Source: Chloroflexota bacterium (GTDB lineage Bacteria > Chloroflexota > UBA11872 > VXNJ01). From it: DNA of 64,000 bases. Shown here in pieces: positions 20,492 through 22,096 of the stretch (the first letter of the stretch is position 1; the number at the start of each line of letters is the position of its first letter). The stretch spans positions 1-64,000 of the forward strand of contig OZ253449.1 in assembly GCA_965261345.1 (NCBI GenBank), read 5' to 3'. The notes under the pieces were generated by a model. It was not told where the DNA came from, did no database searches, and worked only from the letters and a program-made list of their open reading frames with translations. A program made the position numbers and the translations under genes.

Positions 20492-20703
20492 GATGTAATG
20501 CTACATCACTTCATTTGCAACGAGCTAACCGACAGATTGTTTGAGCGTGATGCGCCGCGACAAACCGGGCGCCGCGCATAAAGTCAATTGATCAGCGGGC
20601 GCGCGCGGAATGCCATCCGCCGCGACAATAGGGCCTTTCAACCGGAGTCGCCGTCCGATGGAATTCACCGCTATGCAGCCCGGCGACAACCCCAATCCTG
20701 TAC

Positions 20704-22058
20704 CTTGTATGTTCCAAATGGGAAGTCCCGGGTGCGGTAGGGCGCCTGTACCTTGGTCCATTGAGACCGTTTTAAAGCACGCTCGCCGCACCCGGATCTC
20801 CCGGCGCATAGACCCCGAACAATTGCTCGGTGGGCTCTAGACCCCGTATTCGCAAGGAAGGGCGTAGCGTCGGGAGTAACTATAGGGAGTTTTACATATG
20901 TGCGAGGACGTATATGTAGGCGTCGACGTTGCCAAAAACACCGTCGATATCGCCCTCGGGCCCCAGGGCGAGGTCTTTACCCTGCCCAACTCTGCGGCCG
21001 GGTTCGGGGCGTTGATCAAGCGCCTCGAGAACTATCTGGTGGCGCTGGTGGTCGCAGAGGCCACTGGCGGCTACGAGGAGCAGCTGGCCGACGCTCTCCG
21101 GGACGCCGGCTATAAGGTGGCGGTGGTAAATCCGCGCCAGATGCGCGACTTTGCCCGGGCGCTTGGGATCCTGGCCAAAACCGACCGGATCGATGCCCGG
21201 GTGATCGCCCGCTACGCCGAGGCGGTCAAGCCCCCGGCAAGGGAGCGCAAGTCGCCCGCCGAGCGCGAACTGGCGGGACTGGTTGCCCGCCGCGGCCAGC
21301 TCATGGACCATCTCACCGCCGAGAAAAACCGGCTGGGGAGGCGGGTAGTTCCGCGTGTACGTGCCGACATCAGGCGCGCCATTGCCGGACTGGGGCGCCG
21401 CATCGCCACCCTTGACCGCGATATCGGCAAGCTGATTGAGGCCGACTCCGATCTTGCCACCCGCAGCGCGCTGCTGACCTCGGTGCCCGGCGCCGGCCCG
21501 CAGCTGGCGGCAACCGCGATCGCCTACCTGCCCGAGCTTGGAACGGTGGACGAGAAGCAGATCGCAGCCCTGGTAGGGGTTGCGCCCCTGAACCGCGACA
21601 GCGGCGCGTATAGTGGCCGGCGAACGACCTGGGGCGGACGCTCAAGGGTCAGGTCGGCGCTTTACATGTCGGCCCTGTCAGCCTCGCGCCACAACCCGGT
21701 GATCAAGGCTTTTTACGACCGGTTGGTGGAGAGCGGGAAACCCAAAAAAGTGGCGCTGACGGCTTGCATGAGAAAGCTGCTGGTGATCCTGAACGCGATG
21801 CTGAGGAACGGCGAGTATTGGCGCGAGGAGTCCGCCTCGGGCTGAACGCCTGGCAGGTCCGATCGCTCTTGCGGGCAAGGTCCCTGGCGAAGCCATGCCC
21901 GGGATCGGGCTATTGCGGCGATTACGCATCCGGTTATCGCCTGTCGATCGGGCTGCGGTCACTATGAACCGCGGTCGGGGCGCTGGATCTATCCTCCCCT
22001 TTCTCCTGGACCCCTCTGACCCCACCTCTGCCGGAATTGACAATCAAGACAATTGCTT
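20704..22058 (+). mobile_element. IS110-family element A, copy 2
   Basis: CTT core at both ends; near-identical to copy 1. Confidence 0.92.
20898..21845 (+). CDS. IS110 recombinase (A2)
   Basis: 315 aa; two substitutions relative to A1. Confidence 0.95.
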
Positions 22059-22096
22059 TAAAGATGTTAAGGGCTTATCTAAAGGGAGGGATTCCT

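What the first reader, a model, noticed from the sequence alone, without database searches (positions are those of the whole stretch)
20696..22070. IS110-A bridge RNA is programmed against another IS110's left end and promoter
Seen: the target loop carries CCTGTACCTT and TTTTAAAG (reverse complement CTTTAAAA). Empty sites are CCTGTAC-CTT-TAAAG for copy 2 (10/10 left) and CCTATAC-CTT-TTTAA for copy 3 (9/10 left). Both lie 5 bp inside the left end of a B-type IS110. Circularising B or B' gives TTGACA-17 nt-TACCTT, so the CTT core is part of the host's predicted -10 box. Known: IS110 bridge RNAs (IS621) are transcribed from such junction promoters. Inference: an RNA-guided hyperparasite that hits a constrained donor/promoter sequence, separates B's promoter from B's bridge RNA and points it at its own.
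Basis: partly seen in the sequence, partly recalled or inferred. Interest (0 to 1): 0.85.

Follow-up and report, generated by a model that had tools for sequence, protein, structure and literature searches.

The report
IS110 element nested in another IS110
A small RNA-guided jumping gene carries a guide RNA set to the first bases of a different jumping gene's left end and sits inside every copy of that element in this genome, which is a new twist on a habit already known for this family.

Summary
IS110-A (1,352 bp) is an IS621-like IS110 element with a two-loop bridge RNA in its left end. Its target loop reads CCTGTAC-CT-TTAAAA. That sequence is the CC core, the 5-nt right-donor half-site and the -10-like TACCTT at the left tip of a second, distant IS110 lineage (B-type).

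All five B-type left ends in this 2.39-Mb genome carry A at this exact position and orientation. At least four of these were separate events, in lineages 53-62% identical in protein. Thirteen B-type left ends in four sister genomes that lack this guide are unoccupied there.

Guide/target and guide/donor covariation across 15 related elements confirms the loop assignments. A variant copy with different guides sits in the inverted repeat of an IS3-like element. A 75% relative hits another site in a B' left end, in reverse orientation.

The TTGACA-17-TACCTT junction geometry is real and conserved. The "promoter hijack / hyperparasite" reading is untested and partly contradicted: the host of copy 2 has no bridge RNA of its own, B's donor half-site is regenerated outside A, and nesting also runs the other way.

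IS110-family elements that target ends of other mobile elements are already in print (IS1383/IS1384, IS4321/IS5075). This is a new variant of a known kind.

The parts
20704..22057 (+). IS110-A copy 2, both CT core copies included (1,352 bp with one core)
   Evidence: Shared repeat and flanks. Length and RE motif.
20706..20897 (+). Left end encoding the bridge RNA: two stem-loops with internal loops
   Evidence: Fold -80.4 kcal/mol, z -3.13. Consensus structure of 18 relatives has 29 pairs, 13 with compensatory changes.
20745..20753 (+). Left target guide CCTGTAC+CT
   Evidence: Matches the left flank 9/9. The column covaries with flanks in 15 elements.
20770..20777 (+). Right target guide TTTTAAAG (reverse complement CT+TTAAAA)
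   Evidence: 7/8 to the right flank of copy 2. Covariation.
20819..20827 (+). Left donor guide ACAATTG+CT in the second loop
   Evidence: Equals the last 7 nt of the RE plus core. 14 of 15 relatives match 7/7, with compensatory variants.
20898..21845 (+). Recombinase, 315 aa (DEDD_Tnp_IS110 + Transposase_20)
   Evidence: Pfam. Full-length match to IS621 transposase 8wt6_A, E 6.4e-43.
22037..22042 (+). TTGACA in A's right end. Gives TTGACA-17-TATGTT on A's own circle junction.
   Evidence: Spacing computed for 15 relatives: 17 nt in 13 and 18 nt in 2.
20697..20703 (+). B#1 core CC plus the first 5 nt of its left end (TGTAC), cut off from the rest by A
   Evidence: B ends defined.
22058..23106 (+). 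B#1 continued: 58-nt left end, then the DEDD recombinase gene, 5' part
   Evidence: Pfam. blastn and tblastn. Short LE.
23107..24846 (-). IS256-like element (Transposase_mut) splitting B#1
   Evidence: Boundaries approximate to a few bases.
24847..25115 (+). B#1 3' part and right end (TTGACA 25095-25100, core CC 25114-25115)
41471..42824 (+). IS110-A copy 3, in the left end of B'
42825..44534 (+). B' (its tip CC+TATAC is at 41464-41470): 297-nt left end with two-loop RNA region, 404-aa recombinase, right end up to the first C of the core
44535..46456 (+). Group II intron inside the CC core at B' right end
   Evidence: Rfam RF02005, 162 bits. RVT_1 ORF. Boundaries from 9 copies.
14039..15392 (+). 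IS110-A copy 1. It carries type-1 guides but sits at a type-2-like site between two IS3-like left-end pieces.

Best explanation
IS110-A is an autonomous IS621-like IS110 element, with its own recombinase and a left-end bridge RNA.

The target-binding loop of that RNA is programmed for 5'-CCTGTAC-CT-TTAAAA-3'. The sequence exists in this genus only as the left tip of a second, distantly related IS110 lineage (B-type). It comprises B's CC core, B's 5-nt right-donor half-site TGTAC, and the following CT-T.

Recombination at the CT core places A 5 nt inside B, always in B's orientation.

Shown here: the site and orientation specificity, the saturation of all B left ends in this genome, the empty sites in sister genomes, and the guide/target and guide/donor covariation.

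Inferred: the B tip is used because it is conserved, multi-copy, harmless to the cell and itself mobile. It is conserved because B's own RNA and its junction -10 appear to read it. This makes it a safe harbour with hitch-hiking, as for other IS110-family members that home to ends of other mobile elements.

Insertion duplicates CT, so CCTGTACC and TACCTT stay at the outer edge. A composite B[A] should therefore still be recognisable to B's RNA. Any B junction promoter would read first into A's bridge RNA. That is a consequence of the geometry, not shown to be the reason for the target choice.

Close copies with other guides show that the loop is being reprogrammed in nature towards other IS ends. 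The type 2 guide is ATTCCC-CT / CT-TCATTA, which targets the IS3-like IRL.
For: Family:
- Pfam DEDD_Tnp_IS110 + Transposase_20.
- Full-length match to IS621 transposase, E 6.4e-43.

RNA:
- Two stem-loops.
- 29 consensus pairs, 13 of them with compensatory changes, in 18 relatives.

Guides, in 15 elements:
- Left-target matches average 4.07 of 7 on the diagonal against 2.40 off it.
- Right-target matches average 4.27 of 6 against 1.43.
- 1 of 100,000 permutations reached the observed left-target value, 0 the right-target value and 0 both together.
- A guide's own flank is best or co-best for 11 of 15 guides.
- Left donor guide equals the RE in 14 of 15 elements; 0 of 100,000 permutations reach that.

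Sites:
- Copies 2, 3, 4, 5 and 8 sit at CCT(G/A)TAC-CT-T, followed by B-type sequence.
- Every B-type 5'-UTR signature in the genome (4 of 4) is preceded by A's right end, and B#1 likewise.
- B, B' and B'' are 53-62% identical in protein.

Empty sites:
- 12 of 12 B-type left ends in G002, G003, G005 and G006 are contiguous at this site.
- So is the B'-like end beside L017.
- None of those genomes has a copy above 88% protein identity, and the 88% copy carries type-2 guides.

Constraint on the target: B's second loop holds GTACAGG where the tip is CCTGTAC, and GTATAGG where it is CCTATAC.

Natural reprogramming:
- A7 and the G002 copy carry ATTCCCCT / TAATGAAG. They sit about 13 nt inside the IS3-like IRL, whose unoccupied form is seen 9 times.
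- L017 (75% protein identity) has other guides that match another site in a B' left end.

Other samples: contigs of runs from two further studies show A's ends abutting B''-type and B_A5-type left-end sequence.

Literature:
- IS621 junction promoter, CT core and RNA acting in trans (passages of PMC11208160).
- Read-through transcription supports excision (passages of PMC13626964).
Against: - Nothing here shows activity. No circle junction, transcript start or empty-site read was obtained; laid assembled contigs only.
- The right-target half matches only 5-7 of 8.
- Two copies (A1, A6) carry type-1 guides but sit at sites that fit type-2 guides better: A1 scores 8/9 + 7/8 to type 2 against 4/9 + 4/8 to type 1. 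Either the RNA acts in trans or left ends are exchanged between copies, so guide and site are not always linked in cis.
- A4 and A8 may not be independent. A8 differs from A4 mainly in one mosaic segment, while their B'' hosts are 99.87% identical.
- All evidence comes from one genus of related genomes, which are not independent samples.
- Two scans of metagenome contigs for A's left end found nothing.
- The safe-harbour and hitch-hiking rationale is an inference from analogy, not a result.
Confidence: 0.85

Rival explanations
1. Promoter capture or hyperparasitism. The target was selected because it lies in the -10 of B's circle-junction promoter. A thereby takes B's promoter for its own bridge RNA and recombinase, and cuts B's RNA and gene off from it, lowering B's activity.
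For: - TTGACA-17-TACCTT is conserved at the predicted junction in all B-type elements with both ends: 10 unoccupied sister-genome copies plus B#1, B' and B''.
- The A clade has the homologous TTGACN-17/18-TAT(G/C)TT.
- After insertion TACCTT is kept, and it is followed 1 nt later by A's left end.
- All five insertions have B's orientation.
- No sigma-70-like promoter is predicted in the integrated A2 region, nor across the junction of A's right end with B.
- IS621 RNA is made from such a junction promoter.
Against: - TACCTT has 3 of 6 matches to TATAAT, which fails the scan's own 4-of-6 rule (criteria).
- There are no RNA or circle data.
- B#1, host of the copy in the finding, has no bridge-RNA region at all.
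- Orientation is fixed by the guides and is no independent evidence.
- L017 sits in a B' left end in reverse orientation, 75 nt further in.
- Type-2 copies target an IS3-like IRL where I found no convincing junction promoter.
- Read-through from A could still deliver B's RNA. Extended transcripts work for IS621.
- B' and B'' ORFs behind A are intact.
Confidence: 0.25
2. One ancestral insertion, then copying. A entered one B element once, and the A-in-B arrangement spread because B transposed as a composite. The five cases would then not be five targeted events.
For: - B's donor half-site CCTGTACC is regenerated outside A, so a composite should stay mobile.
- B''#1 and B''#2 are 99.87% identical and both carry A.
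- A8 differs from A4 mainly in a mosaic segment, with 62 of 65 differences at positions 235-567.
Against: - The hosts are four diverged lineages: B, B' and B'' at 53-62% protein identity, plus the B_A5 fragment. The A copies inside them are 99.0-99.7% identical. A is therefore far younger than the split of its hosts.
- B'' copies in G002 (5) and B''-like copies in G006 (3) have no A.
Confidence: 0.05
3. Reverse direction. B-type elements insert next to A's right end, so A is the target and B the invader.
For: - B'' does land in an A-clade right end in G006, using a C-run.
- B-type sequence always follows A's right end in G000.
Against: - B's core CC and its first 5 nt lie on the far (left) side of A in all five cases.
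- The uninterrupted tip CCT(G/A)TACCTT is seen in 12 of 12 sister-genome copies with unrelated left flanks.
- A's own guide spells that tip.
Confidence: 0.02

Closest known systems
IS621 / IS110-group bridge-RNA elements (Durrant et al. 2024, PMC11208160, passages read; Hiraizumi et al. structures 8wt6 etc.)
   Same: - Recombinase matches over its full length.
- RNA encoded in the left end, with a target loop and a donor loop.
- CT core.
- Guide/target and guide/donor covariation.
- -35 in the RE and -10 in the LE at 17 nt across the junction.
   Different: IS621's natural targets are REP elements. Here the target is the tip of another IS110.
IS1383, which targets the inverted repeats of IS1384 (Muller, Lauf & Hermann 2001; title only, seen in the reference list; paper not read)
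   Same: An IS110-family element whose specific integration site is the end of another insertion sequence. The type-2 copies in the IS3-like IRL are the direct analogue.
   Different: - The host here (type 1) is itself a bridge-RNA IS110.
- The site is that host's RNA-read donor half-site and junction -10.
- Two guide versions in near-identical copies aim at two different IS families.
[quoted passage not shown]
   Same: DEDD-transposase elements homing to conserved ends or recombination sites of other mobile elements.
   Different: Those are IS1111-type, with the RNA region downstream of the gene. A is IS110-type with the RNA upstream. The host class also differs.
Expanded or tandem IS110 loci (Hu et al. 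2026 preprint, 10.64898/2026.08.14.744561; abstract and section 8 read)
   Same: Repeated insertion into already occupied IS110 loci, with half-match boundaries. L042 (partial LE plus full element) and A6 look like this.
   Different: That work describes growth of a locus by the resident element's own donor matches. It does not describe one lineage's target loop aimed at another lineage's tip.

Membership tests
IS110 family, IS110/IS621-type bridge-RNA element (element A) | Recombinase with an N-terminal DEDD RuvC-like domain and a C-terminal Tnp domain | tested here: met
   - PF01548 at 1.3e-24 and PF02371 at 7.2e-20.
- Residues 5-306 align to IS621 transposase residues 8-316, E 6.4e-43.
- The GxD, EATG, KTDxxDAR and SG motifs are aligned.
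IS110 family, IS110/IS621-type bridge-RNA element (element A) | Long non-coding left end that folds into two stem-loops with internal guide loops | tested here: met
   - 192-nt LE, MFE z-score -3.13.
- Consensus of 18 relatives has 29 pairs, 13 with compensatory changes.
- No Rfam family reaches its threshold. The only weak hit is sX15, on the opposite strand, E 0.0058.
IS110 family, IS110/IS621-type bridge-RNA element (element A) | Target-loop guides covary with the flanking target (left guide = top strand; right guide = complement) | tested here: met
   In 15 elements, diagonal against off-diagonal is 4.07 vs 2.40 (of 7) and 4.27 vs 1.43 (of 6). At most 1 of 100,000 permutations reaches the observed values.
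IS110 family, IS110/IS621-type bridge-RNA element (element A) | Donor-loop guide covaries with the element's own end | tested here: met
   The left donor guide matches 7/7 in 14 of 15 elements and 6/7 in 1, with variants ACAATTG, ACAGTTG, ACCGTTG, ACAGGTG, ACGGTTG and ACGATTG. The right donor guide could not be tested, because the LE tip TGTAT hardly varies.
IS110 family, IS110/IS621-type bridge-RNA element (element A) | Short core (CT in IS621) present at both junctions, with no target duplication beyond it | tested here: met
   CT precedes the LE in 17 of 18 relatives and ends the RE in 15 of 15 with an RE found. Empty sites hold a single CT.
IS110 family, IS110/IS621-type bridge-RNA element (element A) | Promoter rebuilt across the RE-LE junction of a circular intermediate | tested here: inconclusive
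   The sequence geometry is present: TTGACA-17-TATGTT, with 17 nt in 13 and 18 nt in 2 of 15 relatives. No circle junction or transcript start was seen (contigs only).
IS110 family, IS110/IS621-type bridge-RNA element (element A) | RNA is expressed and bound by the recombinase; recombination depends on it | not testable with these tools
   One 165-nt contig from an RNA library spans flank plus the first 96 nt of A. By the tool's own caveat this may be DNA carry-over.
IS110 family (element B-type, the host) | DEDD + Tnp domains, core duplicated at both ends, RNA loops that match its own ends and target | tested here: met
   - Pfam, and a weak match to IS621, E 8.4e-8.
- Ends CC|T(G/A)TACCTT...AGT|CC, with flanks diverging outside them.
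- GGAGAGT and GTA(C/T)AGG in the 5' UTR match RE and LE, with one covarying position.
- The GGGGGGG stretch in B'' matches its C-run target.
- Exception: B#1 and B#2 have no RNA-length left end.
IS-end-targeting IS110 members (IS1383-like behaviour) | Insertions confined to a fixed position and orientation in the end of another IS, with uninterrupted ends known | tested here: met
   9 of 9 readable A-family insertions in G000 lie in left-end regions of other IS: 5 in B-type and 4 in the IS3-like element. There are 12 + 1 empty B tips and 9 empty IS3-like IRLs.

The most novel reading that the evidence does not exclude
This is a conflict between RNA-guided transposons. A's left target guide is a sense copy of B's donor half-site, and so is also complementary to B's own right-donor guide. 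A has saturated every B copy. In B circles it would take the junction promoter for its own RNA and recombinase, while B's RNA and gene are pushed 1.35 kb downstream. A group II intron hits the other end of B, inside its core. B-type IS110 would then be a host exploited at both tips by two different RNA-guided elements, and guide loops would evolve as weapons between mobile elements rather than as tools for finding safe chromosomal sites.
Probability: 0.2. Interest if true: 0.8.

Novelty: new variant of a known kind. Interest (0 to 1): 0.5.

Why it matters
The finding shows, in natural sequence, three things that have mostly been shown by engineering.

1. Nearly identical IS110 copies in one genome carry different target loops aimed at different sites, which is natural reprogramming.
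2. Copies are found at sites that fit the other copy's guide, which points to RNA acting in trans or to exchange of left ends.
3. One bridge-RNA element can be aimed at the very bases that another bridge-RNA element's RNA must read.

It also gives a compact natural system for testing how RNA-guided transposons interact, whether nested composites stay mobile, and whether junction promoters can be taken over. The system has two IS110 lineages, an IS3-like element and a group II intron, all nested in each other.

For annotation, A-in-B composites will be mis-called as single elements or as broken genes unless the nesting is recognised.

Tried and rejected
Rfam. No family reaches its gathering score on A. 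At E-value level the only hit of note is sX15, on the opposite strand, at 32.5 bits against a threshold of 55. I did not use it.

Public runs. All four runs laid were assembled contigs. They break at A's ends, as repeats do. They show no go-back joint (circle) and no skip of A (empty site), which proves nothing either way. The parts of A without cover in the two RNA libraries are not evidence of silence.

Metagenome scans. Two scans of metagenome contigs with A's left-end start and with a degenerate loop pattern gave 0 matches each. A wider survey of type-1 insertion sites could therefore not be made. The class-wide search found A-like left ends only in the same genus: 5 of its 6 other genomes, and 0 of the 91 genomes of the other 19 genera.

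Hybrid promoter. I looked for one formed by A's outward TTGACA and B's remaining left end. The hexamers at 16-18 nt are TAAAGA, TAGGTA and TAAGAG, all without the final T, and the scan calls nothing. Rejected.

IS3-like junction promoter. I looked for one that the type-2 site might exploit. The ends are TGGCCGGCTCCCCCTCATTGG... and ...GGGGACCTGCCA, with no convincing -35 or -10. Left open.

Register of A6. I first read A6's site in a CTT-core register as 8/10 to the type-1 guide. In the CT register it is 4/9 to type 1 and 7/9 to type 2.

IRR search. The first search for the IS3-like IRR by inverted match failed. The end was found by comparing copies.

Right donor guide. It could not be assigned, because the tip TGTAT is nearly invariant.

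Literature. Full-text searches listed no paper whose title or abstract describes an IS110 guide aimed at another IS110's end. This is not proof of absence.

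Full report
**What is there**

The window is the first 64 kb of a single-contig 2.39-Mb genome at 61.6% G+C. The closest relative's public record is titled a Chloroflexota MAG. The window is dense with mobile elements:
- three copies of a 1.35-kb repeat;
- IS256-like, IS4-like, IS3-like and Mu-like transposase genes;
- a group II intron;
- a 3.35-kb perfect inverted repeat with a large serine recombinase.

The 1.35-kb repeat (A) has eight full or interrupted copies and one 63-nt fragment in the genome. 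It encodes a 315-aa protein with the two Pfam domains of IS110 transposases. That protein aligns over its full length with the IS621 transposase of solved structures, E 6.4e-43.

**Is the RNA a bridge RNA, and are the loops rightly assigned?**

The 192 nt between A's left tip and the start codon fold into two stem-loops with internal loops.

I aligned this region from 18 distinct relatives: A, its variant, two further families in the same genome, and elements of 11 related genomes. The consensus structure has 29 pairs, 13 of them with compensatory changes.

In the first loop, the 5' strand ends in CT in nearly all sequences and the 3' strand ends in AG.

I read guides and flanks from the stored files for the 15 elements whose right end could be located. 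Three were dropped because no right-end motif was found: A7, family D and L023. Results:
- The 7 non-core left-guide positions match the element's own left flank at 4.07 on average, against 2.40 for other elements' flanks.
- The 6 non-core right-guide positions match at 4.27, against 1.43.
- At most 1 of 100,000 permutations reaches these values.
- The 7-nt guide in the second loop equals the last 7 nt of the element's own right end in 14 of 15 elements, through six sequence variants.
- CT precedes the left end in 17 of 18 and closes the right end in 15 of 15.

So A and its clade meet every sequence-level criterion of an IS621-type bridge-RNA element. The core is CT.

**The target**

A's type-1 guides spell CCTGTAC-CT and CT-TTAAAA.

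Five copies (A2 and A3 in the window; A4, A5 and A8 elsewhere) have left flanks ending CCTGTAC-CT (CCTATAC-CT for A3). Their right flanks begin CT-T followed by A/T-rich sequence. Scores are 9/9 or 8/9 on the left and 5-7 of 8 on the right.

What follows each of the five is a second kind of IS110 element, B-type:
- B#1, split by an IS256-like element;
- B';
- two copies of B'';
- a truncated fragment.

B, B' and B'' share only 53-62% protein identity and match IS621 only weakly.

B-type ends are defined by 12 uninterrupted copies in four sister genomes. Unrelated left flanks run up to CC|T(G/A)TACCTT, and unrelated right flanks start after ...GTAGAGAGT|CC.

In this genome every B-type left end is occupied: 5 of 5. 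All four B-type 5'-UTR signatures are preceded by A's right end, and no contiguous tip exists.

In the sister genomes, which have no type-1 copy, 12 of 12 tips are unoccupied at this site. So is the B'-like tip next to L017.

The A copies are 99.0-99.7% identical to each other. Their hosts are old lineages, so these are at least four recent, separate, targeted insertions. A4 and A8 may or may not be independent.

**Why this sequence is constrained**

B' and B'' have about 297 nt between tip and ORF. In that stretch lie GGAGAGT, which matches the right end AGAGAGT, and about 30 nt later GTACAGG (B'') or GTATAGG (B'). These are the complements of CCTGTAC and CCTATAC, the respective tips.

That single covarying position, in the expected place of a second loop, fits a right-donor guide. 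If so, A's left target is exactly B's core plus right-donor half-site.

The same bases form TACCTT, 17 nt from a conserved TTGACA, once B's ends are joined. This holds for B#1, B', B'' and the 10 sister-genome copies with both ends. It parallels TTGACN-17/18-TAT(G/C)TT in the A clade.

For IS621, a promoter rebuilt across this junction drives the RNA.

**What the nesting does**

Here the evidence stops and inference starts.

Because CT is duplicated, the left junction reads CCTGTAC-CT-TGTATG... B's 8-nt half-site and TACCTT survive outside A. A B[A] composite should therefore still be a substrate for B's RNA, and a B junction promoter would transcribe A's RNA first.

Against it as the reason for the target choice:
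- TACCTT is a weak -10, with 3 of 6 matches, below the rule used.
- No transcript or circle data could be obtained.
- B#1, the host of the very copy in the finding, has only about 58 nt of left end and no RNA of its own.
- A 75%-identical relative with other guides sits 75 nt further inside a B' left end, in reverse orientation.
- The type-2 guide aims at an IS3-like IRL, where I see no junction promoter.
- In G006 a B''-like element has landed in the C-rich right end of an A-clade element, so nesting runs both ways.
- A is autonomous, so "hyperparasite" fits only loosely.

The plainer reading is homing to a conserved, multi-copy, dispensable and mobile sequence.

**Natural reprogramming**

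A7, the 63-nt fragment at 115700, and the 88%-identical copy in G002 carry ATTCCCCT / TAATGAAG instead of CCTGTACCT / TTTTAAAG. The stems around them are almost unchanged.

Their sites lie about 13 nt inside the IRL of a 1,358-bp IS3-like element. Its unoccupied form, TGGCCGGCTCCCC-CT-CATTGG..., occurs nine times.

A1 (window copy 1) and A6 carry type-1 guides but sit at sites that fit type-2 guides. A1 scores 8/9 and 7/8 to type 2. This is most simply explained by RNA from one copy guiding another copy's circle, which was shown for IS621 with RNA supplied in trans, or by exchange of left ends between copies.

In total, 9 of 9 readable A-family insertions in this genome are in left-end regions of other IS: 5 in B-type and 4 in the IS3-like element.

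**Comparison with what is known**

- Mechanism and family are those of IS621-type elements (PMC11208160 and PMC13626964, passages read).
- Homing of IS110-family members to ends of other mobile elements is in print:
  - IS1383 into the inverted repeats of IS1384;
  - IS4321/IS5075 into Tn21-family inverted repeats;
  - the IS1111-attC group.
  I saw only the titles of these papers, in reference lists.
- Growth of IS110 loci by repeated insertion is described in a 2026 preprint.
- In my searches I did not find a guide loop aimed at another bridge-RNA element's donor half-site, with a sister guide aimed at an IS3-family IRL in the same genome.

**Verdict**

- Observation: confirmed.
- Interpretation: partly supported.
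- Novelty: a new variant of a known kind.
- Interest: moderate.

Noticed in passing
window 44535-46456; also G000 110150-112098: A group II intron (Rfam RF02005, RT ORF 44957-46384) is inserted between the two C's of the core at the right end of B', and at the same place in B#2. The same host IS110 is thus hit at its left tip by IS110-A and at its right tip by an intron. The insertion separates B's TTGACA and left-donor bases from the core.
   Followed up: partly
G000 269285-271217, 819309-821235, 873299-875232, 113723-115661, 135869-137805, 1585791-1587723: Other intron copies split IS110-A copy 8 and a family-C relative at about position 1034 of the element, on the strand opposite the recombinase gene. 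They also split the start of the IS3-like orfA. Intron subfamilies seem to be aimed at several IS.
   Followed up: partly
window 22058-22117; G000 108953-110150: B#1 and B#2 have only about 58 nt between left tip and recombinase ORF, and a right end of a few tens of nt. B' and B'' have about 297 nt with a two-loop RNA region. This B lineage appears to lack its own bridge RNA, yet it keeps the same tip as B'' and a similar right end. It may depend on RNA made by B''.
   Followed up: partly
window 14039-15392 (A1); G000 875271-876607 (A6): Copies with type-1 guides sit at sites that fit the type-2 guide. A1 lies between a reversed IS3-like piece lacking its first 45 or so nt and a forward IS3-like piece that begins about 15 nt inside its IRL. 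This looks like recombination between two A copies, or like trans guidance.
   Followed up: partly
G000 268253-269285 (A8): 62 of 65 differences from copy A4 lie in positions 235-567. This is a mosaic segment, as from gene conversion with a diverged relative.
   Followed up: no
L061 (G006) 1199-2744 and flanks: A B''-like element is inserted in a C-run of the right end of a 61%-identical A-clade element. An intact copy of that element is in L098. Nesting between the two IS110 lineages goes both ways.
   Followed up: partly
L042 (G006), upstream of the element: A partial left end (about the first 97 nt) of the same element directly precedes a full copy, joined at a CT. This is a tandem or self-nested arrangement of the kind described for expanded IS110 loci.
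   Followed up: no
window 33076-36423 and 37509-40856: Two 3,348-bp arms, 100% complementary and 1,085 bp apart. Each carries a 688-aa large serine recombinase (Resolvase + Recombinase + Zn_ribbon_recom) and a 305-aa ORF without a Pfam match.
   Followed up: no
window 20719-20881, minus strand: Weak Rfam match to sX15 (Xanthomonadaceae sRNA), 32.5 bits against a threshold of 55, E 0.0058. It lies over A's bridge-RNA region but on the opposite strand.
   Followed up: no
window 20697-20792, run X19: A 165-nt contig from a metatranscriptome library joins 69 nt of a left flank like that of copy A5 to the first 96 nt of A. This could be read-through transcription into the bridge RNA or DNA carry-over. 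It cannot be told from contigs.
   Followed up: no
G000 142302-142531 / 137890-139014 (A7): A7 has an extra C in its left donor guide (ACAATTGCCT) and the same extra C at its right end (CAATTGC-CT). The G002 relative has the guide change but not the end change.
   Followed up: no
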